Source: an uncultured SAR86 cluster bacterium
GTDB lineage: Bacteria > Pseudomonadota > Gammaproteobacteria > Magnimaribacterales > D2472
DNA: 64,000 nt
NCBI GenBank assembly: GCA_902626385.1
Contig: CACOEZ010000001.1
Location: 145,864-209,863, forward strand
Direction: 5' to 3'
The position numbers and the translations under genes are program-made. The notes beneath the pieces are model-generated. The model did no database searches. It was not told the origin of the DNA and saw only the letters and a list, made by a program, of their open reading frames with translations. Shown here piece after piece: positions 1 through 13,937 of this stretch. Every line of letters starts with the position of its first letter. Positions within the stretch are counted from its first letter, which is position 1.

Positions 1-29
1 TATTGTAACCTTCTTTAAGAAACATAAAA

Positions 30-1178
30 ATGAAAGTAATAGTTTTGGGTGCTTGTGGTGGCATGGGAAGATATGTTTCGAAATCCATTTCATCATTTCA
101 AGAAATTGATGATCTAGTCGTTGCAGATTTAAATTTAAAAGATGCTGAGCTTTTTGCCTCCAAATTAGGCCCCCATGTAAAAGGAATCGCAGTTGACATT
201 AATGACACTGAAACCTTATTGAGAGTTTTGTTAAATTACGATGTTGTTTTAAATACTGTTGGACCTTTTTTTAAATTTGGTTATCAAGTACTAAAAACCT
301 CCATAGAAGCCAATTGCCACTACATGGATATTTGTGATGACTGGGAACCAACAGAGAGAATGCTAGAGTTAAATAATATTGCTAAAGAAAAAAACTTGAC
401 AGCAATATTAGGTCTTGGGGCAAGCCCAGGTATTACAAATTTACTAGGAAAAATTGCAATAGATCATTTAGATATAGCTCATACAATTTATACAGGCTGG
501 AATTTAGAGGAGGCACAACCAGAGTCTGTATCTTCTCAAAAGGAAATTAATGCAGCTATGATCCATGGGATTGAGCAAATTACTGGAAAAGTAAAAATTT
601 TTAAGGATGGTAAATTTGAGATGGTTAACCCTCTTAAAGAACTTAAAGTTTCATATCCTAATATTGGAACTCATAGTGCATTTATTTTTGGTCATCCTGA
701 AGCAATTACATTTCCATACCATTGCAAAGATCTTTTAAATTCAGTCAATCTTGCTCACGGAAATAAATCTACCATTTTTGTTTTAAAAATCATGAGGAAA
801 TTAATTAACCTAAAAATACTTACAAAAAAAATAGCTGCACGATTTTTAGAATGGTTGGAAAAACAAGAAGCTTCAAAAAAACTTGTTCAAGCAAACTCTT
901 TACCAGAAATTTATGCTTTAGCAATAGGATTTAAAAATGGTAATCAAGAGTCTGTTGGAGTATCTCTTGATGGAGAACCATCAAGAGAACTAACAATGGG
1001 TGAGGCAACAGGCTATCCTCTGTCTCTTGGCCTTAAAATGTTTCTTAATAACGAAATATCAGAAAGAGGAGTTATTGCACCTGAAAGTAAATGCATTGAT
1101 CATAAAAAACTATTGATGGAAATTTATGAATCGTTTGGCATGAAAGAGGCAAAAATAAAAATTGATAAATCTTGGTAA
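30..1178 (+). CDS. saccharopine dehydrogenase-family NAD(P)-binding oxidoreductase
   Basis: N-terminal Rossmann-type motif VLGACGGMG. The LGASPGITNLL segment is typical of the Sacchrp_dh family. Intact 382-aa ORF. Confidence 0.65.
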   Translation: MKVIVLGACGGMGRYVSKSISSFQEIDDLVVADLNLKDAELFASKLGPHVKGIAVDINDTETLLRVLLNYDVVLNTVGPFFKFGYQVLKTSIEANCHYMDICDDWEPTERMLELNNIAKEKNLTAILGLGASPGITNLLGKIAIDHLDIAHTIYTGWNLEEAQPESVSSQKEINAAMIHGIEQITGKVKIFKDGKFEMVNPLKELKVSYPNIGTHSAFIFGHPEAITFPYHCKDLLNSVNLAHGNKSTIFVLKIMRKLINLKILTKKIAARFLEWLEKQEASKKLVQANSLPEIYALAIGFKNGNQESVGVSLDGEPSRELTMGEATGYPLSLGLKMFLNNEISERGVIAPESKCIDHKKLLMEIYESFGMKEAKIKIDKSW

Positions 1179-1184
1179 TTATAA

Positions 1185-1235
1185 TGGTGCCCAGAGGTGG
1201 GATCGAACCACCGACACAAGGATTTTCAGTCCTTT
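1185..1235 (-). repeat. displaced 3' half of tRNA-Phe (att-type direct repeat, 51 bp, identical to 7316-7366)
   Basis: tggtgcccagaggtgggatcgaaccaccgacacaaggattttcagtccttt matches the intact tRNA-Phe gene exactly (tRNA nt 26-76 including CCA). Identity stops at 1236, so the D-arm and 5' acceptor are absent. Confidence 0.92.
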
Positions 1236-1279
1236 ACTCGAGAGTAAAAACCTCATAAGAATACATATTACAGACTCTT

Positions 1280-1299
1280 CTGTTCACCTATCTGTTCAC
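1280..1299 (+). promoter_or_regulatory. two direct CTGTTCAC(C) sites 12 bp apart (candidate recombinase arm-type or operator sites), left arm of island
   Basis: ctgttcacc at 1280-1288 and ctgttcac at 1292-1299, about 45 bp from the tRNA-fragment repeat. The same 8-mer pair recurs next to the other att repeat. Confidence 0.45.
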
Positions 1300-1335
1300 T
1301 AATCTGAATAAAAAAAGTTGATATATAATTAAATT

Positions 1336-1857
1336 GTGAACAAACTATTATTATCAAGTTTTATTTTATTACCATCTTTTCTTTTTTCATCAGATTTAGA
1401 AGAACTTTTAACTTACGATGTTGGTGTAGAGAATCAATTATTATTTTCAAGACGATGTTCCGCTTTAAATTTCTATTTTGCCACTTTCATTCCTGATTTT
1501 GATCAAAAAGCAGAGGAGCATGGTTATTTTTTTAATACAATATCTTTTGGTTACTCTGCTTTAAATTATTATGAGAGTAGAGAAGACTATAAAAATGCAG
1601 ATGAAGATCGAATCACAAAAATAAGTCAACAGATTCAAATTGAAAATGATAAACATTACGATAAATATATTGATTTTTATGTTTCATTAACAAGGGATCG
1701 ACTTAAAGAAAATGATTTCACAGATGATGAAGATTTTGATGAAATATTGCCATCAATAATTATGAGTGACTATGACTTTTGTAATGCATTCTATCATTTT
1801 ATCCAAGAAGAGATTTATAAGTCTCCTGACGATTTGAGTAATCTTCGTGAACAGTAA
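1336..1857 (+). CDS. hypothetical secreted protein (N-terminal signal-peptide-like segment), island cargo
   Basis: GTG start. The hydrophobic N-terminus MNKLLLSSFILLPSFLFSS resembles a signal peptide, and the rest of the protein is acidic. I recognise no family. Its last ~22 codons are duplicated at 7196-7266. Confidence 0.45.
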   Translation: MNKLLLSSFILLPSFLFSSDLEELLTYDVGVENQLLFSRRCSALNFYFATFIPDFDQKAEEHGYFFNTISFGYSALNYYESREDYKNADEDRITKISQQIQIENDKHYDKYIDFYVSLTRDRLKENDFTDDEDFDEILPSIIMSDYDFCNAFYHFIQEEIYKSPDDLSNLREQ

Positions 1858-1861
1858 TTGA
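1791..1861 (+). repeat. 71-bp imperfect direct repeat, copy 1 (3' end of ORF 1336-1857)
   Basis: Aligns with 7196-7266 without gaps, with 5 mismatches in 71 positions (hand alignment). Confidence 0.85.
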
Positions 1862-1867
1862 AATAAC

Positions 1868-2260
1868 TTAATAACTATTATATTTCTTTAAGCATTCATT
1901 CATATCGATAAGGTAATTGTATTTTTCAAGACTTTTTTCAAAGAAGGGCATTATTCTGCTATAAAAGTATGCTCTTTTGCCCTTGATGTATTTTGTAGCA
2001 CCAAAGATAATCTCGTACTCTTCAAACATCACCTCAATGAGTCCAACATAACTCATGTGCATAACCACTGCTTCTGTAATAACTACTTTGGATCGAATAT
2101 GACGTTTGTTATTTTTCGATCTGAAATGCTCATGAATAAGGTTTTCCATTAGATCTGAGAAATGTTCTAGACTTTCTTTGACTTCAGCATTAATGATTTT
2201 TTCATGTTCTTTTGCTTCAGGATTTTGAAATTCACCAAAAATACTTACTACATTAGACAT
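1868..2260 (-). CDS. hypothetical protein, island cargo
   Basis: 130-aa ORF with no recognisable motif. Convergent with 1336-1857 and divergent from the MTase operon. Confidence 0.4.
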   Translation of the reverse strand: MSNVVSIFGEFQNPEAKEHEKIINAEVKESLEHFSDLMENLIHEHFRSKNNKRHIRSKVVITEAVVMHMSYVGLIEVMFEEYEIIFGATKYIKGKRAYFYSRIMPFFEKSLEKYNYLIDMNECLKKYNSY

Positions 2261-2385
2261 AATTTAAATATACACAATTGTTTAAAATTTAAAATAGACA
2301 TTTAAAAGTTAGTATATTTTTTTATTAAAGAATTACTGTTAACATCCATATATTATTATCATTTACTCTGATAAATTATAAGTAT

Positions 2386-3135
2386 ATGGCAAAAAAAGAA
2401 TCAATTGCTTTGATCAAAGGCGATGCAATAAAAGAGTTAAAAAAAATAAAAGATGATTCAATAGATTTTGTTTTAACAGATCCGCCATATAATCTAGGAC
2501 TCTTCATGAAAAACAGAGCAACAAATCTTTCTGCTCTTCGTAAAAATCATTTCTCAGGTAAAGAATGGGACAATTTAGAAATCAATGATTGGAAAGAAAA
2601 TATGGAACAATTATTTTTTCAACTAGATAGGGTTTTAAAAGAAGGCGGCAATCTAATCGTCTTTATGGCAGTTATTAAAATAGAAACACTTATTAATATT
2701 GCTGAAAAGAACAATTTTTATTATAAAACTACTGGCATTTGGCATAAAAAAAATCCTATGCCAAGAAATAAAGATCTTCACTTTATAAATTCAAATGAGT
2801 GTTGGGCATATTTTGTAAATAATAAAAAAACTGGAACATTTAATAATAAAGGTAAAACAATTCATGATTTCTTTGAAACTGCATTAACTTCGTCTAAGGA
2901 AAAAGAGTTTGGTGGTCATCCAACTCAAAAACCGTTACCTTTGATGGACCATTTAATTCAAATTTTATCAAATAAAGGAGATACAATTCTTGATCCTTTT
3001 ATGGGGTCTGGATCCACTGGTGTTTCTGCTTCAAGACTGGGTAGAAATTTCATCGGAATCGAACTTAATGGCGATTATGTAAAAATTGCTAAGCAACGGT
3101 TAAAAAAGTCAAAACAATGTCAGTTAGATTTGTAG
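2386..3135 (+). CDS. beta-class DNA methyltransferase (N6-adenine or N4-cytosine; DPPY type, N6_N4_Mtase family)
   Basis: Catalytic motif IV LTDPPYNLG lies near the N-terminus (DPPY = nt 2479-2490). The AdoMet motif I region HPTQKPLPL...LDPFMGSGSTG lies near the C-terminus. The IV-before-I order defines the beta class. Confidence 0.9.
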   Translation: MAKKESIALIKGDAIKELKKIKDDSIDFVLTDPPYNLGLFMKNRATNLSALRKNHFSGKEWDNLEINDWKENMEQLFFQLDRVLKEGGNLIVFMAVIKIETLINIAEKNNFYYKTTGIWHKKNPMPRNKDLHFINSNECWAYFVNNKKTGTFNNKGKTIHDFFETALTSSKEKEFGGHPTQKPLPLMDHLIQILSNKGDTILDPFMGSGSTGVSASRLGRNFIGIELNGDYVKIAKQRLKKSKQCQLDL

Positions 3136-4166
3136 ATCTATTTTCTGGAGCAGGTGGTTTATCAAAAGGTCTCTGTGATGCCGGATTTGAGTTAGTTTAT
3201 GCAAACGAAATAGATAATTCTTTTTGTGAGACATTTGATAAAAATCATAATGTAAGAATAATAGACAATAGAGATATTAATATAATTAATATCAAAAAAG
3301 ACTTTCAAAAATTTTCTAAAATTGATCTTATTGTAGGAGGTCCACCATGCCAGGGATTTTCTCAAAAAGGAAGTCGAAAAGGACTTCTTGATGATAGAAA
3401 TTTTTTATTTAAAAAATTTGTAGAATTTGTTGAAATTTTAAAACCACAAGTTTTTTTAATGGAAAATGTTCCAAATTTATTAACTTCAAATAATGGTTTC
3501 TTTTTTAAAGAAATAAATAAGCATTTTAATAATATGGGTTATCAAGTTTCTAGCAAGGTTATGAATTGCTTTGACTATGGTATTCCTCAAACAAGAAGAA
3601 GGGCGATAATAATTGGTAACTTACTTTCTAAAGAATTTGAATTTCCTAAAAAGATTAAAAAAGTAGTTAGTGTTCACGAAGCAATCTCAGATCTTCCAAG
3701 ACTTCTTTCAGGAGAAGGTGATACTTTTCAAGAGTATGTAAAATCTTCTTTATCAGATTATCAAAAGATAATGAGAAAAGGATCAAAGGGTATTTATAAT
3801 CATGTATCAACGAAACATTCACCAGAAGCACTTGAGAGACTAAGTTTGATTCCACCATTTGGGGGAAAGTCTGACTTACCAAGTCAGTTAAGGACAAAAT
3901 CTATATATAGTGGAACGTGGGGTCGAATCGATCCAAATGGACCAGCAAGAACAATAACAACAAGATTTGACACACCCTCATCTGGTCAGTTTACTCTCAA
4001 TGATCAAGATAGATGTCTTACTGTTAGGGAAGCAGCAAGGATACAGTCATTTCCTGATAATTTTATTTTTTATGGAAATAAAACATCTCAAATGAAACAA
4101 GTAGGAAATGCTGTGCCGCCTTTGTTAGCAAAGCAGATTGGTCAGAAAATCTTAGAATTATTTTAA
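3117..4166 (+). CDS. DNA (cytosine-5)-methyltransferase
   Basis: Full set of C5-MTase motifs: I FVDLFSGAGG, IV GGPPCQGFS (catalytic Cys codon 3348-3350), VI ENVPNL, VIII QTRRR, X GNAVPPLL. The ATG lies 19 nt inside the upstream MTase gene. Confidence 0.93.
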   Translation: MSVRFVDLFSGAGGLSKGLCDAGFELVYANEIDNSFCETFDKNHNVRIIDNRDINIINIKKDFQKFSKIDLIVGGPPCQGFSQKGSRKGLLDDRNFLFKKFVEFVEILKPQVFLMENVPNLLTSNNGFFFKEINKHFNNMGYQVSSKVMNCFDYGIPQTRRRAIIIGNLLSKEFEFPKKIKKVVSVHEAISDLPRLLSGEGDTFQEYVKSSLSDYQKIMRKGSKGIYNHVSTKHSPEALERLSLIPPFGGKSDLPSQLRTKSIYSGTWGRIDPNGPARTITTRFDTPSSGQFTLNDQDRCLTVREAARIQSFPDNFIFYGNKTSQMKQVGNAVPPLLAKQIGQKILELF

Positions 4167-6743
4167 ATAATATTCAAAAAAACTTTTTGAGGAATAAAGC
4201 ATTTTCCTATATTCATCATAACTGCCTTCGTGAAAAATATTTTCTAATTTTATTACTTCATCAAATTTAGATACTTTCTCATTAATTTCCTCAAAGTACT
4301 CATGTTTTAATTTGATTTGTTTTTCATTCCAAGAAAGACATTCAATATTTTTTAATATGCTGAAATATCTTGTATCAAAGATATTATATTTTTCATCTTT
4401 AGCATTTGATTTAACAGATGAAATTAAAAATTTTTCTAATTCATATATATTTTTTGATCCTCTGTATTTAATAATGCTTTGAATAACTTCAGATACCTGA
4501 TCATGATTTCTAGCAAAGAAAACAAAATGTGCTAATTCAAATTTTGATAAAGTGCTTTCTTCACCTAAATTCTTTAACCCAACTAATATTTGATAGATGA
4601 AGATAACAGTGTAGAGAGTAAAAACAGAACCTTTGTTTGATGTGATGGTAGTAGCATGGCGATTTATTGGACTATGAATGTCATTCCAGAAATAAAGTTT
4701 TTCCATTTGATTTGAAATGATTTTATAAGTTTGGTTTGGTTCATTAAGAATTTTTTGGTACACATTAGTCCCTTTAAATGGACTATTTGTATCAATTAAT
4801 CCCAATAATTTTGAAAAAAATAATGCTCTAGTTCCTTCAATTTTTATACCGCTCTTTTCTGCGTCTCTTTTTAATGCTTTATCAAGATCTTTTAACCTAT
4901 CGTGGTTATTAACGTTTTCAAGATAATATTCGATTGCCCAAAGATGATCTTTGATGTCCTTTTTTTTCTTATCAACTTGCCAATATTCAGTAACCGAATT
5001 TTTCTTGTCTTGATCCGTCTTTGTGCTTTGATTTAAAAATTCACCGTAATCAAACCATTCTTCTTCGATTTCTGTTAAGTCTATTTCTTTTGATTTTTTT
5101 GCAACAATTGCTTGAAAAATATTTATAACTTCTTTTTCAAAAGTTACATGTTTTCCATCATTATCATAGTAATAAATATCTTTTTCTTCATCATATTCAA
5201 AATCACCTGGTTCCAAATTTAAACCATTAAGAATAATATCTGAAGTTCTATAATTACCAATAAAATCTAATACTTTAAGGTATTCTTTATCATCAGAAAG
5301 TCTTAGTCCTCTTCCAATTTGTTGAATAAATATCGTTAGGGAGTCAGTTGGTCTTAACATAAGAATTGTTGATACATCAGGTATATCAACTCCTTCGTTA
5401 AACATATTTACAGTAAAAGCAACTTCGTATTCGTCATTTCTAAATTTTTGAAGCAGTGTTTCTCTTTCTTCGTTTGAAAATCTACTCCTTGAAGTCTCAG
5501 ATTTCGAGTGAATTGCAACAGACTTTATTCCGTTATCATTAAAAACTTTTGCCATATAATTTGCATGTTCTATTGATGTACAAAATCCAATTGTTTTTTC
5601 TTTTTCAACTGATTCAAGTCTATATTTTGAGATAATTGACTTATCCCTTGACTCGATCATCAATTTTTTATTTAGATCATCAATATCATATCTATTTCCA
5701 TTCCATCTTATGTTTGAATAGTCAATGTCATCAAAGAACCCAATGTAATTTATGTCTGCTAAATAACCTTCTGCGACTGCTTGATCTTGATCCATTTGAT
5801 AAAAGATATTATCTCCAAAACTTGGAAGTATTTCTTTTTCATCCGTTCTAAATGGTGTAGCAGTTAGACCAAGCAAGAATTTTGGTTTGAAATAGTCTAA
5901 AACTTTTTGATAAGTCGGTGCAGCAGCGTGATGCGCTTCGTCAATTATTATGTAGTCAAAATAATTTGGAGTAAATTTTTCAAGCATTTGTTTTCTATGA
6001 AGACTTTGTATTGTTGCAAAGAAAATATTTTTACTCTCAAGATTAGAATTTTTTGACAGCATCTCCATTTCTCCAATTCTGTCTTTCATTAAATCTTCAA
6101 AATCATTTTTTGTCTTTCTAAGTATTTCCTCAACATGTGCAACAAATAAAACCTTTTTTGATTTAGAATTTTGAATATCGAATCCGCTTAGAAAAGTTTT
6201 TCCAAGTCCTGTTGCTAAAATTACAAGACCAGCATTTTTATTATTTGTCCTATTCTCATGAATTTTTTCTAGTGCTATTTTTTGGACTGGCGAGGGAGTT
6301 ATTTCTTGTGAATTTCTTCCAAGATATAAGTTATATAGATTTTTATCAGACTTGAAACATTTTCTTAGTTCAAATACTGCTTCATTTATAGAATCAACTT
6401 GATTTTTAGTAATTTCAAGATATTTATCAAAATTTTCTCTGATAAAATTATTTTTTCTTTGCAGTTCATCAAACCTATCTTTTTTATTTCTTACAAAGAT
6501 TCCAGTTTCGTCGTGACTGTGGAAACCATGTGTTTCTATTGCATATTTTTTATTAACTGTTGTTACTACAAAGTCAATTATAAAAACTCTACCAGATCCA
6601 TCTTCCCGCTCCATTTCAACCTGTGGTTCAATAAAATCAAGACCTTCTTCTCCATAATCTTTAAAAAAGACATTTCTAATAAAAGACTCTTCGAGATGAC
6701 CTAACTTACCTCTATACTTTGAAATATAATCTTCTAGTAACAC
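4158..6743 (-). CDS. fusion protein: Vsr/DUF559-like PD-(D/E)xK nuclease domain + SF2 DEAH helicase (ResIII/Helicase_C type) + ~330-aa uncharacterised C-terminal domain
   Basis: Helicase motifs: I ATGLGKT (nt 6195-6215), II DEAH (5931-5942), III LGLTATP, VI QQIGRGLR. The N-terminal segment VFIIDFVV-x10-YAIETHGFHSH resembles the Vsr/DUF559 core (xDF ... IExDGxxH). I recognise nothing in residues ~530-861. Confidence 0.8.
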   Translation of the reverse strand: MLLEDYISKYRGKLGHLEESFIRNVFFKDYGEEGLDFIEPQVEMEREDGSGRVFIIDFVVTTVNKKYAIETHGFHSHDETGIFVRNKKDRFDELQRKNNFIRENFDKYLEITKNQVDSINEAVFELRKCFKSDKNLYNLYLGRNSQEITPSPVQKIALEKIHENRTNNKNAGLVILATGLGKTFLSGFDIQNSKSKKVLFVAHVEEILRKTKNDFEDLMKDRIGEMEMLSKNSNLESKNIFFATIQSLHRKQMLEKFTPNYFDYIIIDEAHHAAAPTYQKVLDYFKPKFLLGLTATPFRTDEKEILPSFGDNIFYQMDQDQAVAEGYLADINYIGFFDDIDYSNIRWNGNRYDIDDLNKKLMIESRDKSIISKYRLESVEKEKTIGFCTSIEHANYMAKVFNDNGIKSVAIHSKSETSRSRFSNEERETLLQKFRNDEYEVAFTVNMFNEGVDIPDVSTILMLRPTDSLTIFIQQIGRGLRLSDDKEYLKVLDFIGNYRTSDIILNGLNLEPGDFEYDEEKDIYYYDNDGKHVTFEKEVINIFQAIVAKKSKEIDLTEIEEEWFDYGEFLNQSTKTDQDKKNSVTEYWQVDKKKKDIKDHLWAIEYYLENVNNHDRLKDLDKALKRDAEKSGIKIEGTRALFFSKLLGLIDTNSPFKGTNVYQKILNEPNQTYKIISNQMEKLYFWNDIHSPINRHATTITSNKGSVFTLYTVIFIYQILVGLKNLGEESTLSKFELAHFVFFARNHDQVSEVIQSIIKYRGSKNIYELEKFLISSVKSNAKDEKYNIFDTRYFSILKNIECLSWNEKQIKLKHEYFEEINEKVSKFDEVIKLENIFHEGSYDEYRKMLYSSKSFFEYYLK

Positions 6744-6812
6744 AAATATATTATGCCTTTATCAAAACTTTTTTGTGTCTTAATTCTTATACACATATAT
6801 TAGTAAATGATT

Positions 6813-7211
6813 TTAGTTAATTGGTTTCTTAAGGTTTTCATTTTTTATAATCCAATTATTAAATATTTTTAAATCGCCTTTACAGATTTTTTGTAACTCG
6901 GCACTAGTTGTCCAGTCTTCCGCAGTAACCTTTTGCCAATAGATGCCTTTCCATGAACCAGACTTACAAAATACCACATCTCCAATTTTTATATTCTCAA
7001 TTGAACTAAATACCTCAAAGGGATTTTTACCAAGATCTTCCCAGGAACCATTAATTACATGTATTTGTGGTTTTTTATAAACATTAATTATTTTAATAAT
7101 GATTTGAAAAATATCCTTTATCCAATTCATAAAAATGAAAATTACATAAATCATCATTATCAATACAACTATTAATAAAATATTTTCAATCATCACTATG
7201 ATTTTATCCAA
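6813..7211 (-). CDS. small membrane-anchored hypothetical protein (one N-terminal TM helix), upstream of and co-oriented with the nuclease-helicase
   Basis: The hydrophobic segment IIVMIENILLIVVLIMMIYVIFIFM is followed by an ~85-aa soluble part. The tracked start is TTG (7211), and an in-frame ATG lies at 7193. The 5' end overlaps the 71-bp repeat. Confidence 0.4.
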   Translation of the reverse strand: MDKIIVMIENILLIVVLIMMIYVIFIFMNWIKDIFQIIIKIINVYKKPQIHVINGSWEDLGKNPFEVFSSIENIKIGDVVFCKSGSWKGIYWQKVTAEDWTTSAELQKICKGDLKIFNNWIIKNENLKKPIN

Positions 7212-7266
7212 GAAGAGATTTATAAGTCTACTGACGATCAGAGTAATATTCGTGAACAGTAATTGA
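7196..7266 (+). repeat. 71-bp imperfect direct repeat, copy 2 (orphan remnant of the 3' end of a 1336-1857-like gene)
   Basis: Reads in frame ...DFIQEEIYKSTDDQSNIREQ*, against ...HFIQEEIYKSPDDLSNLREQ* at 1791-1861. No upstream coding similarity remains. Confidence 0.85.
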
Positions 7267-7287
7267 TCTGTTCACCAACTGTTCACC
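7252..7287 (+). promoter_or_regulatory. GTGAACAG / CTGTTCAC hairpin plus a second CTGTTCACC site (candidate arm-type or operator sites, or terminator-like stem), right arm of island
   Basis: gtgaacag (7252-7259), an 8-nt loop, ctgttcac(c) (7268-7276), then ctgttcacc again (7279-7287). The last site ends 28 bp from the tRNA 3' end. Confidence 0.45.
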
Positions 7288-7315
7288 TTTAGAGACTTGA
7301 AGAATGTTGTAACTA

Positions 7316-7391
7316 TGGTGCCCAGAGGTGGGATCGAACCACCGACACAAGGATTTTCAGTCCTTTGCTCTACCAACTGAGCTATCTGGGC
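7316..7391 (-). tRNA. tRNA-Phe (anticodon GAA), 76 nt with encoded CCA
   Basis: The reverse complement GCCCAGATAGCTCAGTTGGTAGAGCAAAGGACTGAAAATCCTTGTGTCGGTGGTTCGATCCCACCTCTGGGCACCA folds as a cloverleaf: 7-bp acceptor stem, GCTC/GAGC D stem, AAGGA/TCCTT anticodon stem with loop CTGAAAA, and GGTGG/CCACC T stem. It is very similar to E. coli tRNA-Phe. Confidence 0.97.
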
Positions 7392-7449
7392 TCAAATTGA
7401 ACTTTGGATTATAGGCAAGTTTACAACCGTTGTCATTAAGTCTAATTTT

Positions 7450-10053
7450 TTAAGCACGAACTCTTTCGTTGTTAGGGTCATAAAGGGATCCTTTGCCAAC
7501 AATTTGAACAGTCATAGGATATAGACCATCTCCACCTTCATTAAAGTATTCGATAAGAAGTGACTTTCCTTGAATTGCAATCTCTTTTGGGAGATAGCCC
7601 ATAACAACAAATTTCTTAAGTGATGGACAATAGGACATTCCAGTTGTATAAGATCTTCTTCCTTTACTATCTATGGGTACTTCACCAGTTGCAGGATCAA
7701 TAATTGGTGAAATGCCAACAGGGTATCTTGTATTTCCAGATACATTGAGATCATCTAATGTCATTGTGCACAGAATTGCACATGGATCCTCATCTCTTTG
7801 TGAAAGATGAGCTGCTTTCCCATGGAAATCTGCTTCTTTAACAAGAGGCCTTTGAATAGCTGCTTCAATGGCAGTATATTCTGTTTCGAGATCCGCACCT
7901 TGAAGTCTAAAACTTTTCTCGAGCCTTCTACTATTGGCATATGTTTCAATGCCAACTGGAACTACACCAACCTCAAGCAATGAATCATATAAAGCCAAAC
8001 CATCTTCTTTATTATTATCAAAGTAAATTTCCCATCCACTTTCACCAACGTATGAGATTCTAGCCGCCCAAACATCAACTTTCTTTCCGCCTAATAAATT
8101 GAGTGTTAAATTTTTTGCAGTTACAAATGGGAAACTTTTAATATCAATTTCATTAGGATCGATAAAATTACCTAAGGCATTTACAGCCTTTGGTCCCCAT
8201 AATCCTATAGTTGCAATATCATGAGTTCTTATATTTATATCTGCGTCCAATCCATTATCGTCTCTATAATTTCTTAATGTAACCCAGTCACGATTTCCAT
8301 CAGCACCACCTGTTACAACTCTGTAACTATCAGCACCTAAACGTGAAATAGTAAGATCTGCATGAACTCCACCATCTTCATCTAGGAAGTTCGTATAAAT
8401 AACTTTACCCTCAGGAGTATTGCCACCAACCTTGGCTACTGATAAGTATTCCAGCATGCGTTCAGCATCTCGACCCTTTATATCCATTATTGGAAAGTGA
8501 GATAAATTAATCATGCCAACAGAATCACTCATTGCAAGATGTTCAGCATTAGCAACATCATATGGAACATGTCGGGTATCCCACTCGTTTTCTCGTAAAG
8601 GCACTTCTTTAAGATACTTTTCAAGCTTTTCTCTGTTGCTAATATATGCTAAAGCTCGTTCCCAACCAGCTACTTCGTTCTCAAAGTGTCCACCTAATTC
8701 TTTCTCTCTCTCATAGAATGGACTTACAAACATTTCTCTTTGAGTAATATAAGGTTCTCTAGGATGAACAGCAGGTGTATATATAGTTTGAGAGTTTTCA
8801 AATGCTCTTGTTTTAACAAACTCTTTTTCTTTTTGATGCGGATAGAACCTTGAGATGTCAAAAGAATGCATATCAACCTGAGTTTTACCATGTACCATTG
8901 CCTCAGCACATAGTCTGGCACAACCAGGACCATCTTTTACCCAAACAGCCTCACATAGCCAAAAACCTCTGACTTCAGGACTTTCACCAATCAAAGATCC
9001 TGCATCAGCTGTCACAGAAAGTAGTCCATTAAATGAACTTTTTTCATCCCATCCTAATTCGCTAAGAATCGGCGTAGTTTCAAAAGCTTTTTCTAGTGGC
9101 TCTGCTATTTCTTCTAGTTCTAAATATCTCATTGAATCTGATAACATAGTTTTGTCTGGATTACCTATATCTTCAGGATCGACAAGTCTAGGATTTTTGT
9201 CTTCATAAAAACCCCATTCGAGCATACCGCCATGAAATTTTCCTGTATCTCTAACGTAAGCAGAGTTGCCTTGGTCCCTTAGAAGAGGATACACAAGCAT
9301 CTCTTCAGTATCTTGAATTTTTTCGTATGGTCCAAAAAATAACAATGGATGCTCAACAGGCATTAATGGAACCCCGACACCTGCCATGTCGCCCATTAAA
9401 GGCCCCCAAATTCCTGAGGCAATAACAACTTTATTTGTTTTAATGGTTCCTCTATCAGTTTTCACTGCAACAATTTTCCCATTTTCTGTTTCAAATCCAG
9501 TAGCTGGAGTATTTGTAAATGTTTTTAAAGCGCCTTTGTCTTTTGCTGTTTCAACAGCAAAATTAACAACTTCTTGTGATCGCGGAACTACAAGGCCCGC
9601 ATCTGGATCCCACATAGCACCAATCATAGAATCCTCTTCAAGTAAGGGAAATTTTTCAACTGCTTCAGCTGCAGATATTAATCTTACGTTTGTGCCAAAT
9701 GCTTTTCCTGATGCAACTTTTCGCTTTAATTCTTCCCAGCGCTCATCATCACCTTTCCGGCAGATTTCTAACCCACCTTTTTTTAAAAAAAAGCCGTTAT
9801 CTTCGTAAAATTTTCTACTAAACGAAGTTGTCCAACAACCTAATTTGTCATGTGTAGTGTTATAAACAAAATCGGATGCATGAGCAGTTGATGCGATATC
9901 TGAGGGGATTATTGTTGATTTTTCTAAACCTACAATATTTTTTTGACCAAGTTCAGCCAACCAATAAGCAAGCATTGAGCCTACGATACCACCGACACCT
10001 ACAATTACTACATCTGCTTCTTCAGGAAATTTTGAGTTGGATTTATCTGACAT
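7450..10053 (-). CDS. FAD-dependent oxidoreductase fused to a GcvT-type folate-binding domain (dimethylglycine/sarcosine dehydrogenase family)
   Basis: FAD motif VVIVGVGGIVGSM at the N-terminus. The C-terminal aminomethyltransferase-like region includes YVGESGWEIY. I prefer the ATG at 10053 (MSDKSNS...) to the TTG at 10095 in the track. Confidence 0.85.
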   Translation of the reverse strand: MSDKSNSKFPEEADVVIVGVGGIVGSMLAYWLAELGQKNIVGLEKSTIIPSDIASTAHASDFVYNTTHDKLGCWTTSFSRKFYEDNGFFLKKGGLEICRKGDDERWEELKRKVASGKAFGTNVRLISAAEAVEKFPLLEEDSMIGAMWDPDAGLVVPRSQEVVNFAVETAKDKGALKTFTNTPATGFETENGKIVAVKTDRGTIKTNKVVIASGIWGPLMGDMAGVGVPLMPVEHPLLFFGPYEKIQDTEEMLVYPLLRDQGNSAYVRDTGKFHGGMLEWGFYEDKNPRLVDPEDIGNPDKTMLSDSMRYLELEEIAEPLEKAFETTPILSELGWDEKSSFNGLLSVTADAGSLIGESPEVRGFWLCEAVWVKDGPGCARLCAEAMVHGKTQVDMHSFDISRFYPHQKEKEFVKTRAFENSQTIYTPAVHPREPYITQREMFVSPFYEREKELGGHFENEVAGWERALAYISNREKLEKYLKEVPLRENEWDTRHVPYDVANAEHLAMSDSVGMINLSHFPIMDIKGRDAERMLEYLSVAKVGGNTPEGKVIYTNFLDEDGGVHADLTISRLGADSYRVVTGGADGNRDWVTLRNYRDDNGLDADINIRTHDIATIGLWGPKAVNALGNFIDPNEIDIKSFPFVTAKNLTLNLLGGKKVDVWAARISYVGESGWEIYFDNNKEDGLALYDSLLEVGVVPVGIETYANSRRLEKSFRLQGADLETEYTAIEAAIQRPLVKEADFHGKAAHLSQRDEDPCAILCTMTLDDLNVSGNTRYPVGISPIIDPATGEVPIDSKGRRSYTTGMSYCPSLKKFVVMGYLPKEIAIQGKSLLIEYFNEGGDGLYPMTVQIVGKGSLYDPNNERVRA

Positions 10054-10223
10054 AGTATCGAAATTAAACTCTATTTTTTTTACTTTGTAAATCAAAATAT
10101 TTATGGTTTTTGATAGGCAAAAATTTGATATTAATTTTCTATTTTAAAGAGAATTTTTTAAGAAAAAATTATTAATATTTTGACAATTTAATCTTTAAAA
10201 AAAACTAAAATTTAAGTTTAATT

Positions 10224-12564: not shown

Positions 12565-13937
12565 ATACCATGATCTTTCATTTTCTTTGAAAGAGTATTT
12601 CTGCCCCAGCCCAGAATTTGTGCGGCATCATTTTTTTTGCCCTTTGATCTCTCAAGAGCAGTTTTGATTAACATTTTTTCAATCTTTGTAATTGCTATTT
12701 CTGATAACCCTGATTCTATATTCATAGAAACATTGTTTAACCAGTTTTGTAAGCCGTCTTCCCAAGAAGACGCTGGGATGTCTGTAATCTCAAACTCCTT
12801 TACCTCAGTAGGGAGATCTTGTGCTTTTACATGTTGTGTTGGTGACATTAAAGTCAGCCAATAACATACATTCTCAAGTTGTCTTACATTTCCTGGCCAG
12901 TCATATTTTTCAAGTAATTTTTTAGCATCGTCTGAGAGTACTCTTAATTCTTCGTCTAAAGATTCAGAATAATTTTTGAGGAAGAATTTACAAAGATCTT
13001 CAATATCATCTTTTCTTTCTTTCAAAGCAGGAACTTCTATTTTGATAACATTCAATCTATAAAATAGATCTTCTCTAAATTTTTTCTGAGAAACAAGATT
13101 GTTGAGATTTTGATGTGTAGCTGCAATTATTCTTACATCTACTTTTATTGGTTTATCACCTCCAACTCTATAAAACTCTTTATTTGATAAAACTCTTAAA
13201 AGTCTTGTTTGAGATTCAAGAGGCATATCTCCTATTTCATCAAGGAAAAGGGTGCCTCCATTGGCCTGTTCAAATCTTCCGATTCTCTTTTCAACTGCTC
13301 CTGTAAAAGCTCCTCTTTCATGACCAAATAATTCTGACTCAACAAGTTCTTTGGGTATATCAGCCATATTTAATGCTATGAAAGGCATGTCATGTCTAGG
13401 ACTATTCTTATGAAGTGATTTTGCGATAAGTTCCTTGCCTGTGCCTGATTCACCTTGAACCAGGACTGTAGCAATTGTATTAGAGAGCTTACCAATCGCT
13501 CTAAAAACATTTTGCATAGGCAGAGATTCACCAATAATGTCTAGTTTCACGTCTTTCTTAAGACCCTTGGTTAATGGTTTTTCCTCTAGTGCTCTTTTTA
13601 TTATTTTGATTGCCTCTTCAAGATCAAATGGCTTAGGAATATACTCGAATGCACCGCCACCAAAAGATTCAACAGCTGCCTGCATATCTGCAAATGCTGT
13701 CATAATTATTACAGGCAGGTCTTCGTAATTATTATTTACGTGCTTTAGAATGTCGTATCCTAGCATTCCTGGCATTTGTACGTCGGTTATGATGAGATCA
13801 GGCTTTTCAGTCTCTAACTCTTTGATCAGATCTTCACCATTCGAAAAGATTTTTGTCATGAAGCCTTCACTTCCAAGACTCTCTTCAAGAATCAATCTTA
13901 TTGCATCATCGTCATCCGCAATCCAAATTTTATGCAA
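12561..13937 (-). CDS. glnG: sigma54-dependent nitrogen response regulator NtrC
   Basis: Receiver domain (DLIITDVQMPG), AAA+ sigma54-activator core (GESGTGKE, GAFTGA, ESELFGHERGAFTGA) and a C-terminal Fis-type HTH. It lies downstream of ntrB and a glutamine synthetase gene. Confidence 0.9.
   Translation of the reverse strand: MHKIWIADDDDAIRLILEESLGSEGFMTKIFSNGEDLIKELETEKPDLIITDVQMPGMLGYDILKHVNNNYEDLPVIIMTAFADMQAAVESFGGGAFEYIPKPFDLEEAIKIIKRALEEKPLTKGLKKDVKLDIIGESLPMQNVFRAIGKLSNTIATVLVQGESGTGKELIAKSLHKNSPRHDMPFIALNMADIPKELVESELFGHERGAFTGAVEKRIGRFEQANGGTLFLDEIGDMPLESQTRLLRVLSNKEFYRVGGDKPIKVDVRIIAATHQNLNNLVSQKKFREDLFYRLNVIKIEVPALKERKDDIEDLCKFFLKNYSESLDEELRVLSDDAKKLLEKYDWPGNVRQLENVCYWLTLMSPTQHVKAQDLPTEVKEFEITDIPASSWEDGLQNWLNNVSMNIESGLSEIAITKIEKMLIKTALERSKGKKNDAAQILGWGRNTLSKKMKDHGI

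What the first reader, a model, noticed from the sequence alone, without database searches (positions are those of the whole stretch)
1185..7391. Integrase-less genomic island at tRNA-Phe bounded by a perfect 51-bp tRNA 3'-half duplication
The intact tRNA-Phe(GAA) gene (7316-7391, minus strand) has its 3' 51 nt repeated exactly at 1185-1235. These 51 nt run from the anticodon stem through the CCA. The copy at 1185-1235 lies 6 bp after the stop codon of the flanking core gene.

This is the standard footprint of site-specific integration by a tyrosine recombinase into a tRNA gene. None of the six ORFs between the repeats looks like an integrase, excisionase or transposase.

So the element is either a decayed island fixed in place, or one that depends on an integrase supplied in trans. 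The perfectly conserved repeats and intact arm motifs argue that the event is recent or the sites are maintained.
Basis: partly seen in the sequence, partly recalled or inferred. Interest (0 to 1): 0.6.

Follow-up and report, generated by a model that had tools for sequence, protein, structure and literature searches.

The report
Integrase-less restriction-modification cassette at tRNA-Phe
A 6.1-kb block of restriction-modification genes sits in a tRNA-Phe gene with the footprints of site-specific integration but no integrase of its own; the matching integrase is found on small circular helper elements in related marine bacteria, so this is an ordinary kind of mobile island in a dependent, cargo-only form.

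Summary
tRNA-Phe(GAA) lies at 7316-7391 (-), and its 3' 51 nt recur exactly at 1185-1235. These are the only two copies in the genome.

Close relatives carry a clean empty site whose two flanks overlap by the 56-nt core. The island is therefore a recent insertion, not an artefact.

It has no recombinase. Its cargo is two DNA methyltransferases, a helicase-nuclease and three small ORFs.

Both ends keep a full lambda-type arm set of the 8-mer CTGTTCAC. In 54 sibling cassettes from genomes and marine metagenomes, the 8-mer variant matches between the two arms in 43.

I found the missing partner: 8.5-9.6-kb elements carrying a divergent lambda-like tyrosine integrase, a resolvase and, in the one examined (L139), a rolling-circle Rep-like gene. 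They occur integrated at this same tRNA-Phe and as attP junctions. The integrase N-terminal arm-binding domain tracks the 8-mer variant.

A 98.5%-identical copy of the cassette sits beside a flank gene only 76% identical to this genome's.

Best reading: a non-autonomous R-M cassette made, and probably still moved, by a helper integrase supplied in trans. It resembles cis-mobilizable elements and tycheposon or additive-island cassettes. Mobilisation itself is inferred, not shown.

The parts
30..1178 (+). Left flank: saccharopine-dehydrogenase-like gene (host side of the insertion).
   Evidence: Pfam PF03435/PF16653. The gene is 98.3-98.5% identical in the empty-site metagenome contigs L210 and L212-L215, and 96.9% in L209. 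It is present in only 4 of 25 same-genus genomes.
1185..1235 (-). Displaced copy of the tRNA-Phe 3' part (the distal att site). Positions 1185-1229 (45 nt) match the tRNA 3' end through the anticodon loop. Positions 1230-1235 (TCCTTT) are the element-derived half of the core inverted repeat.
   Evidence: Exact 51-nt repeat. The point where identity ends was fixed by comparing many islands.
1236..1335 (+). P' arm, with two direct arm-type 8-mers CTGTTCAC (1280-1287 and 1292-1299). The first starts 50 nt after the anticodon loop.
   Evidence: Sequence. The same layout appears in the genome cassettes of this arm family and 120 metagenome contigs. It aligns with the attP of integrase-bearing elements.
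1336..1857 (+). ORF173, with a signal-peptide-like N-terminus and unknown function. Its last 67 nt plus 4 nt form repeat D1 (1791-1861), which contains an inverted 8-mer GTGAACAG (1847-1854). This is the relic of the P arm of a first, small cassette.
   Evidence: No Pfam or PHROG hit. D1 vs D1' is 93% identical. In L082 the homologue sits at the P-arm end of a cassette. In L077 it is still followed by both direct 8-mers.
1868..2260 (-). ORF130, a small protein of unknown function that recurs in cassettes.
   Evidence: Cluster c4 is found in 14 loci. It has 70 database clusters, all marine, with no Pfam domain. It is absent from the helper elements.
2386..3135 (+). N4/N6 DNA methyltransferase (cargo).
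   Evidence: PF01555 at 4.5e-45; PADLOC MTase_II at 1.5e-61.
3117..4166 (+). C5 cytosine DNA methyltransferase (cargo).
   Evidence: PF00145 at 2.5e-80; PADLOC MTase_II at 1.4e-112.
4158..6743 (-). 861-aa ResIII/SF2 helicase protein, the presumed restriction component (cargo).
   Evidence: PF04851 at 1e-40 and PF00271. The best PADLOC hit is the helicase core of mREase_IV at 2e-68.
6813..7211 (-). ORF132, a small protein with a hydrophobic N-terminus, upstream of the helicase gene.
   Evidence: No family hit. A homologue at 46% identity lies in the G048 cassette.
7196..7315 (+). P arm. It holds D1' (7196-7266, the orphan 3' end of an ORF173-like gene), an inverted 8-mer GTGAACAG (7252-7259), and direct CTGTTCAC at 7268-7275 and 7279-7286. 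Another 29 nt separate the last 8-mer from the tRNA 3' end.
   Evidence: Sequence. It aligns with the P arms of L113, L111 and L070, where the integrase start codon lies just upstream of the inverted 8-mer.
7316..7391 (-). Intact tRNA-Phe(GAA). Its 3' 45+ nt were supplied by the element on integration.
   Evidence: ARAGORN.
7450..10095 (-). Right flank: dimethylglycine/sarcosine-dehydrogenase-like gene (host side).
   Evidence: PF01266, PF16350 and PF01571. Syntenic in all relatives.

Best explanation
The stretch 1185-7315 is a non-autonomous integrative cassette carrying a restriction-modification system.

**How it got there (inferred)**
- It was placed in tRNA-Phe by lambda-type site-specific recombination.
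- The inferred crossover is in the 7-nt anticodon loop TTTTCAG, between the inverted half-sites AAGGA and TCCTT.
- The enzyme is a heterobivalent tyrosine integrase that the island does not encode.

**The likely source of that integrase**
- It belongs to a divergent family of about 385 aa. In the HxxR box the His position is Tyr.
- The family is carried by 8.5-9.6-kb elements that also encode a serine resolvase. The one examined (L139) also has an HUH Rep-like gene.
- These helpers are seen integrated at the same tRNA-Phe and, more often, as attP junctions (circles or tandems).
- The integrase N-terminal domain reads 8-mer arm sites: one inverted and two direct copies on the P arm, and two direct copies on the P' arm.
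- The arm sites fall into several specificity classes. The window's island carries a complete CTGTTCAC-class set on both ends.

**Expected behaviour**: a CTGTTCAC-class helper entering the cell could excise, circularise and re-integrate the island.

**Composite origin**: the present island is a fusion of two cassettes, an ORF173 mini-cassette and an R-M cassette. The internal att site has been deleted, leaving the 71-nt D1/D1' repeat.

**Shown versus inferred**
- Shown: the insertion with an empty site, the arm architecture, the cognate helpers in both forms, the covariation, and near-identical cassettes in different backgrounds.
- Inferred: the exact crossover point, binding of the N-domain to the 8-mers, and present-day mobilisation in trans.
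For: **1. Insertion and empty site**
- In G008, window 1-1239 and 7315-10124 map contiguously with a 56-nt overlap.
- Metagenome contigs L209, L210, L212, L213 and L215 are empty. L210 and L212-L215 have left flanks 98.3-98.5% identical (L209 96.9%); right flanks are up to 100% identical over the 216 nt available (L212).

**2. Hotspot**
- 10 of 36 genus genomes and about 30 of 98 family genomes with the tRNA carry 2-3 copies of its 3' part, spaced 0.7-9.5 kb.
- All copies match the tRNA through the anticodon loop, then diverge into element-specific sequence.

**3. Arm sites**
- The 8-mer variant matches between the two arms in 43 of 54 complete cassettes. Shuffles gave a mean of 8.4 and a maximum of 19 in 10,000.

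**4. Helper elements**
- L200 has an 8,516-bp element between the displaced att and tRNA-Phe, in the same synteny as the window. The resolvase lies at the P' end and the integrase at the P end.
- L201 carries the same element's P-core-P' junction, with integrase and resolvase adjacent.
- L203 has a 9.6-kb element with CTGTTCAC arms.
- L139 is 8.5 kb with overlapping ends and a Rep-like gene (phrog_3584, 1e-5).
- The window's virtual attP aligns with the attPs of L113 and L111.

**5. The helper protein is a tyrosine integrase**
- 12 of 26 members hit PF00589, best 7e-8.
- The family profile hits Tn1549 Int (6emy) at 4e-7.
- R228, R335 and Y368 are invariant; K260 is near-invariant.
- The AF2 model has pLDDT 90.8. 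Its top fold match is full-length lambda Int, 1z1g, at 6e-8.

**6. Specificity**
- N-domain (residues 1-62) identity is 93.5-100% within an 8-mer class and 56-62% between classes.
- The rest of the protein is 79-88% identical between distinct integrases whichever the class (99.4% for the near-identical L165/L200 pair).

**7. Horizontal spread**
- Window 1868-7413 is 98.5% identical to contig L123 over 5,547 nt.
- L123's flank gene is only 76% identical to this genome's. Its P' arm and first gene also differ.

**8. Chromosomes rarely carry the integrase**
- None is found in this assembly, and only one distant homologue in 139 family genomes.
- This fits supply in trans.
Against: - No excised circle or recombination event of this island was observed.
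- The assembly is only 72% complete, so a helper elsewhere in this cell can be neither shown nor excluded.
- Attribution to the helper integrase family rests on the shared attP architecture; no remnant of helper genes lies inside the island.
- Arm variants are mismatched in 11 of 54 cassettes, including the near-twin L123. This shows that recombination other than clean site-specific excision also shapes these islands.
- The helper contig L139 has a 97%-identical rather than exact terminal overlap, so tandem copies cannot be told from a circle.
- The crossover position inside the 45-nt identity block cannot be fixed from sequence alone.
Confidence: 0.7

Rival explanations
1. The island is a decayed, immobile remnant. 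It was once part of, or delivered by, an integrating element, and it is now simply chromosomal DNA. It is inherited vertically and will erode.
For: - It has no recombinase, Rep or resolvase and no trace of them.
- It is a fusion of two cassettes with an internal att site deleted, which is a sign of decay.
- An 805-bp mini-island with another arm type looks fixed in several genomes.
Against: - All five 8-mers and both core sites are perfect.
- The two arms are of the same class, as in 43 of 54 cassettes.
- Closest relatives have the empty site.
- A 98.5%-identical copy lies next to a flank gene that is 76% identical.
Confidence: 0.22
2. The cassette spreads mainly by homologous recombination after DNA uptake. 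The conserved tRNA, the arm sequences and the flanking genes act as the homology. The att repeats are relics of older events.
For: - The left module (P' arm plus first gene) differs between the window and L123, while the remaining 5.5 kb is 98.5% identical.
- 11 of 54 cassettes have mismatched arm classes.
- Flank genes are duplicated inside an array in G014.
Against: - The left flanks differ completely between carriers: Sacchrp_dh here, another gene in L123, and a third in L077. Only the 45-nt core and short arms are therefore shared on that side.
- The insertion boundaries coincide exactly with the att core.
Confidence: 0.15
3. The island is the remnant of a prophage, or the 51-nt copy is an assembly artefact.
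For: tRNA genes are common phage attachment sites. The genome is a fragmented assembly of 20 contigs.
Against: - No phage genes are present (PHROGs).
- No phage or IMG/VR record carries this core or this integrase.
- The largest spacing between repeats anywhere in the family is 9.5 kb.
- The same structure appears in many independent assemblies.
Confidence: 0.03

Closest known systems
Cis-mobilizable elements (CIMEs) of the ICESt1/ICESt3 family in Streptococcus (from my own knowledge of the literature)
   Same: - Flanked by attL/attR sites related to those of an autonomous element.
- Lacks its own recombination module.
- Expected to depend on the helper's integrase.
- Tandem accretion at one tRNA- or gene-end site, followed by deletions.
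   Different: - The helper here is an 8.5-9.6-kb element with a lambda-like integrase and a resolvase (plus a rolling-circle Rep-like gene in L139), not a conjugative ICE.
- The host is a streamlined marine bacterium.
- The cargo is mostly R-M systems.
- Trans-mobilisation has not been demonstrated.
Tycheposons and their cargo remnants in Prochlorococcus islands (Hackl et al. 2023, as described in PMC10872708 and PMC9618062)
   Same: - Integration at tRNA genes in oligotrophic marine bacteria.
- Arrays of cassettes separated by partial tRNA repeats.
- Many units lack an integrase.
   Different: - The integrase family was not compared with tycheposon integrases.
- No tycheposon-type replication module was sought or seen.
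- The units here are much smaller (0.7-9.6 kb).
- The arm-site classes described here have no stated counterpart.
Additive flexible genomic islands next to tRNA genes (for example the tRNA-Lys island with recurring 20-nt tRNA-end repeats in 'Ca. Methylopumilus', PMC10872708)
   Same: - Recurrent direct repeats of a tRNA 3' end separate gene cassettes.
- Content is strain-specific at a fixed locus.
   Different: - The repeat here is 45-51 nt and ends at the anticodon loop.
- Arm-type sites are present.
- A cognate integrase-bearing helper has been identified.
Classical tRNA-integrated islands and phages with lambda/P4-type integrases (Islander definition, PMC4383910)
   Same: - An intact tRNA plus a displaced 3' fragment mark the ends.
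- The identity block runs from the anticodon loop to the 3' end.
- The integrase is heterobivalent and uses arm sites.
   Different: - The defining integrase gene is absent from this island.
- A neighbouring genus (G120) does have a 9.5-kb island at the same tRNA with a P4-like integrase and different arm repeats, GATGACTT.
Integron gene cassettes
   Same: The logic is similar: promoterless or compact cargo units with a recombination site, an integrase encoded elsewhere, and arrays at one site.
   Different: - No attC hairpin and no IntI.
- The sites are duplex lambda-type att sites with arms.
- The target is a tRNA gene.

Membership tests
tRNA-integrated genomic island (Islander-type) | An intact tRNA gene plus a displaced 3' fragment as a direct repeat at the far end. 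| tested here: met
tRNA-integrated genomic island (Islander-type) | An empty site in relatives that equals the two flanks joined over one core. | tested here: met
tRNA-integrated genomic island (Islander-type) | A tyrosine integrase gene inside the island. | tested here: not met
   Pfam; PF00589 in the whole genome finds only two Xer-like genes of about 300 aa elsewhere; helper integrase search; tblastn.
Non-autonomous (cis-mobilizable) integrative element | att ends homologous to the attP of an autonomous element that uses the same target. | tested here: met
   The virtual attP aligns with L113, L111 and L139. Helpers are integrated at tRNA-Phe in L200 and L203.
Non-autonomous (cis-mobilizable) integrative element | Excision or transfer when the helper integrase is supplied in trans. 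| not testable with these tools
The only support is indirect: a 98.5%-identical cassette beside a 76%-identical flank gene.
Lambda-type heterobivalent tyrosine integrase (the helper protein, not in the window) | Catalytic R...K...[H/Y]xxR...Y, the tyrosine recombinase fold, and an N-terminal arm-binding domain. | tested here: met
   N-domain/8-mer covariation. DNA binding itself was not tested.
Tycheposon | A tycheposon-clade integrase and its replication module. | not tested
   No tycheposon sequences were on hand. The window has no integrase at all.
Integron cassette | An attC site and an IntI integrase. | not tested
   No attC or IntI search was run. The ends seen are direct repeats of a tRNA part with duplex 8-mer arm repeats, and the only PF00589 hits in the genome are two Xer-like genes.
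Prophage | Phage structural or replication genes, or a phage with this attP. | tested here: not met

The most novel reading that the evidence does not exclude
A population-wide cassette-and-helper system operates in a major group of streamlined marine bacteria.

- Dozens of integrase-less defence cassettes, mostly R-M systems of types I, II, IIG and III, each keep a full lambda-type attL/attR arm set.
- The arm sets fall into at least six 8-mer specificity classes.
- Matching integrases, whose N-domain classes track the 8-mers, ride on small, mostly episomal elements that also encode a resolvase (a rolling-circle Rep-like gene was seen in L139).
- These helpers visit cells transiently and shuffle cassettes at tRNA-Phe.

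This would be an integron-like economy built from tRNA att sites. It would let 1-Mb genomes trade immune genes without paying for a resident integrase.
Probability: 0.4. Interest if true: 0.7.

Novelty: new member of a known kind. Interest (0 to 1): 0.55.

Why it matters
Streamlined ocean bacteria almost never carry integrases or prophages, yet they differ strain by strain in their defence genes.

This locus gives a concrete, testable route for that turnover:
- a tRNA-Phe hotspot;
- cargo-only R-M cassettes that keep complete recombination sites;
- a rarely assembled small helper element that carries the matching integrase.

The arm-site classes paired with integrase N-domain classes are a natural specificity code. 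They could be tested directly with EMSA and excision assays.

The integrase family is also missed by the standard Pfam model in about half of its members. Surveys that conclude "no integrase" in these genomes may therefore undercount it.

Tried and rejected
- **Wrong host assumption.** I first assumed a SAR11 host and looked for pelagiphage attachment sites.
  - Published pelagiphages use tRNA-Cys, tRNA-Leu and tRNA-Arg (bioRxiv 10.1101/410191).
  - No phage record has this core beyond generic tRNA-Phe similarity, and no IMG/VR contig has the exact 51-mer.
  - NCBI titles of a family member and of integrase carriers read "Gammaproteobacteria bacterium". I therefore withdraw the SAR11 guess. 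The exact clade (SAR86-like?) was not verified.
- **PF00589 scan of 139 family genomes.** It suggested there was no integrase at all. This was misleading, because the helper integrase is too divergent for that model in many members.
- **tblastn with three other integrases from the family** (G120, G097 and G057) against the metagenome loci found nothing.
- **Shallow structure and profile searches.**
  - An AF2 model from a 4-sequence alignment was useless, with pLDDT 46.
  - The PDB profile search with 4 sequences found nothing.
  - Both worked after the alignment was deepened.
- **The look-up of sequencing runs was closed.** The circular-junction test could not be run.
- **Exact-protein look-up of ORF130** found nothing. 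The listing of cluster members gave no organism names.
- **ORF130, ORF173 and ORF132** have no family assignment.
Full report
**1. Observation**

The window holds one tRNA gene, tRNA-Phe(GAA), at 7316-7391 on the minus strand. Its 3' 51 nt recur exactly at 1185-1235. The match extends to 56 nt with one mismatch (sequence).

The 51-mer occurs twice and only twice in the 1.09-Mb, 20-contig assembly, which is 72% complete. The copy at 1185 starts 6 nt after the stop of a 382-aa saccharopine-dehydrogenase-like gene.

Between the repeats lie these ORFs:
- ORF173 (1336-1857, +);
- ORF130 (1868-2260, -);
- an N4/N6 DNA methyltransferase (2386-3135, +);
- a C5 methyltransferase (3117-4166, +);
- an 861-aa ResIII/SF2 helicase protein (4158-6743, -);
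- ORF132 (6813-7211, -).

None of them is a recombinase.

**2. It is an insertion, and a recent one**

In the genus relative G008, the dehydrogenase-like gene, a complete tRNA-Phe and the dimethylglycine-dehydrogenase-like gene are contiguous. Window 1-1239 and 7315-10124 map onto it with a 56-nt overlap.

Metagenome contigs whose copy of the left-flank gene is 98.3-98.5% identical to the window's also have the empty site. Their right flanks are 90-100% identical (100% only over the 216 nt available in L212).

**3. The locus is a hotspot across the bacterial family**

- In the genus, 10 of 36 genomes with the tRNA carry two or three copies of its 3' part.
- In the family (139 genomes, 10 genera), about 30 of 98 do.
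- Spacing ranges from 0.7 to 9.5 kb.

Every displaced copy is identical to the host tRNA from the 3' end through the anticodon loop (45 nt...AAGGATTTTCAG). It then diverges directly afterwards, in the 5' strand of the anticodon stem. Variants include TCCTTTACTC here, and TTCTTGACTC, TCCTTGTGTC and TGCATGACTC elsewhere.

In genera whose tRNA has a G-to-A change in the T arm, the displaced copies carry that change too.

This is the pattern expected of a tyrosine integrase that exchanges strands in the anticodon loop, between the inverted half-sites AAGGA and TCCTT. The exact crossover is inferred.

**4. Arm sites**

- On the P' arm, two direct copies of an 8-mer spaced by 4 nt begin 50 nt after the loop (window 1280-1287 and 1292-1299, CTGTTCAC).
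- On the P arm, before the tRNA 3' end, lie one inverted copy and then two direct copies spaced by 3 nt (7252-7259, 7268-7275 and 7279-7286).
- The same layout is found in genome cassettes of this arm family.
- It is also found in 120 marine metagenome contigs retrieved with a pattern for loop + 48-52 nt + two 8-mers.
- The 8-mer comes in classes: CTGTTCAA, CTGTTCAC, GTGTTCAA, GTGTTCAT, CTGTTCAT, GTATTCAA and CTGTGCAT.
- In 54 cassettes where both ends could be read, the class is the same on both arms in 43. Shuffling gave a mean of 8.4 and never more than 19 in 10,000 trials.

Each cassette is thus one attP-derived unit, and the 8-mers behave as functional sites.

**5. The missing integrase**

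Standard PF00589 searches find only two Xer-like genes in nearly every family genome. One exception is a 494-aa P4-like integrase inside a 9.5-kb tRNA-Phe island in G120. That island has the same arm layout but another repeat, GATGACTT.

Among the metagenome contigs, seven carry a protein of about 385 aa immediately beside the P arm, and a 200-aa serine resolvase (PF00239, 4e-44) immediately after the P' arm.

Evidence that the 385-aa protein is a divergent tyrosine integrase:
- 12 of 26 family members reach PF00589, best 7e-8.
- A 68-sequence profile hits the Tn1549 integrase structure at 4e-7.
- R228, R335 and Y368 are invariant, and K260 nearly so. Tyr stands at the His position of HxxR.
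- A confident AF2 model (pLDDT 90.8) matches full-length lambda integrase best, followed by XerH and Cre.

**6. The helper exists in both forms**

- **Integrated.** In assembly GCA_902613665.1 (L200), the synteny is the same as in the window (GSII-ntrB-ntrC-rhodanese-gpmA-mutY-DMGDH-tRNA-Phe). An 8,516-bp element lies between a displaced att copy and the tRNA. The resolvase is at the P' end and the integrase at the P end, with CTGTTCAT arms on both sides.
- **attP junction.** A Tara scaffold (L201) carries the same P arm, core and P' arm joined, with integrase and resolvase adjacent.
- **Window's own class.** L203 has a 9.6-kb integrated element of the CTGTTCAC class.
- **Possible circle.** Contig L139 (8,561 bp) has overlapping ends, 250 nt at 97%. 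It also has a small HUH-motif protein that hits a phage replication-initiator family.

Junction-form contigs outnumber integrated copies. Only one distant homologue is found in 139 family genomes, and none in this assembly. The helper is probably mostly episomal. This is an inference.

**7. Specificity**

| Comparison | Identity, residues 1-62 (4 strands + helix, pLDDT 82-97) | Identity, rest of protein |
|---|---|---|
| Integrases with the same arm 8-mer | 93.5-100% | 87.9% (L113 vs L203); 99.4% (L165 vs L200, near-identical proteins) |
| Integrases with different 8-mers | 56-62% | 79-88% |

The same-class figure holds even across host genera (L113 vs L203). It places the window's island in the L113/L203 class.

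The window's virtual attP (7096-7315 joined to 1185-1400) aligns with their attPs site for site.

**8. Evidence for movement without an integrase**

- Window 1868-7413 is 98.5% identical over 5,547 nt to contig L123.
- There the cassette abuts a different flank gene, only 76% identical to this genome's copy.
- L123 also has a different P' arm class and a different first gene.
- The left module (att, P' arm, ORF173, ORF130) occurs in a GOS contig (L077) with yet another left flank.
- Exact copies of the methyltransferase occur in several ocean samples.

**9. The island is composite**

- The 71-nt repeat (1791-1861 vs 7196-7266, 93%) is the 3' end of ORF173 plus the inverted 8-mer.
- In L082 the ORF173 homologue sits at the P-arm end of a cassette.
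- In L077 ORF173 is still followed by both direct 8-mers before ORF130.
- In L123 only the orphan 3' end remains at the P arm.

The simplest history is two cassettes in tandem: an ORF173 mini-cassette, then the R-M cassette. These fused when the internal core and adjoining arm parts were deleted. Tandem arrays of two or three units are common.

**10. Cargo**

| Genome | Cargo of sibling cassette |
|---|---|
| G018 | Type I R-M |
| G048 | Type III R-M |
| G064 and others | Split type IIG-like system |
| G091 | Type II R-M |

C5 methyltransferases are the commonest ORF family of 150 aa or more inside 77 complete cassettes.

Small ORF families recur in cassettes but are absent from helpers. These include ORF130, a 109-aa protein and a 70-aa protein. 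Their role is unknown.

**11. Verdict**

The island is best read as a non-autonomous R-M cassette. It is comparable to cis-mobilizable elements, tycheposon remnants and additive tRNA islands. I identified a plausible helper family for it.

Mobilisation in trans remains inferred. The read test could not be run.

I found no paper describing this system. A 2026 preprint on Pelagibacter notes tRNA-Phe near a hypervariable region, but only by position and in another clade.

Host identity is uncertain. NCBI labels relatives "Gammaproteobacteria bacterium".

Noticed in passing
L057 (G120:C1:1227000-1245000); in window orientation, att at 4103, integrase at 4254-5738, tRNA at 13636: A second, unrelated element family uses the same tRNA-Phe. 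It is a 9.5-kb island with a 494-aa P4-like integrase (Arm-DNA-bind_3 + PF00589). It has the same two-plus-two arm layout but uses the 8-mer GATGACTT.
   Followed up: partly
L058 (G097:C7, 7,952-bp contig), 4491-4900 upstream of the 529-aa integrase: An attP-like region has two pairs of GGTAGCA repeats about 190 nt apart, with no tRNA-Phe core between them. Part of this region resembles the P arm of the G120 island. It is probably a related element with another target site.
   Followed up: no
L049 (G014), L052 (G005), L055 (G024), L200: the most distal att copy plus about 805 bp: A mini-island holds one 154-163-aa ORF and a different arm (TTTTTATTGAAACCGAGC..., containing a hairpin). It is nearly identical in four genomes and always lies furthest from the tRNA. 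It looks like an old, fixed unit.
   Followed up: no
L049 (G014) between att copies 1 and 2; also L092, L110, L168, L173, L176: Host flank genes lie between att copies. One case is a 325-aa dehydrogenase gene with a fragment of its neighbour. Another is a four-gene block that sits left of the att site in other genomes, here inverted between att and the tRNA. This suggests att-mediated capture or rearrangement of chromosomal genes.
   Followed up: no
window 1868-2260 (ORF130) and homologues; 109-aa and 70-aa ORFs in L052, L054, L056, L062, L120: Three small protein families without any domain hit recur near the P' end of integrase-less cassettes that carry unrelated cargo. They are absent from helper elements. 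They may be a cassette backbone of unknown function.
   Followed up: partly
L145 (metagenome contig, 6,918 bp): A related two-methyltransferase plus helicase module (74% nt identity) lies in the opposite orientation inside a GTGTTCAT-class cassette. The R-M module has therefore moved between cassettes.
   Followed up: no
window 30-1178: The left-flank saccharopine-dehydrogenase-like gene is present in only 4 of 25 same-genus genomes. In other genomes different genes abut the att site. The left side of tRNA-Phe is therefore variable beyond the recognisable cassettes.
   Followed up: partly
Helper integrase family (alignments A2 and A3): About half of the members fall below detection by Pfam PF00589, and Tyr replaces His in the HxxR box. 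Genome surveys based on that model will miss this integrase.
   Followed up: yes
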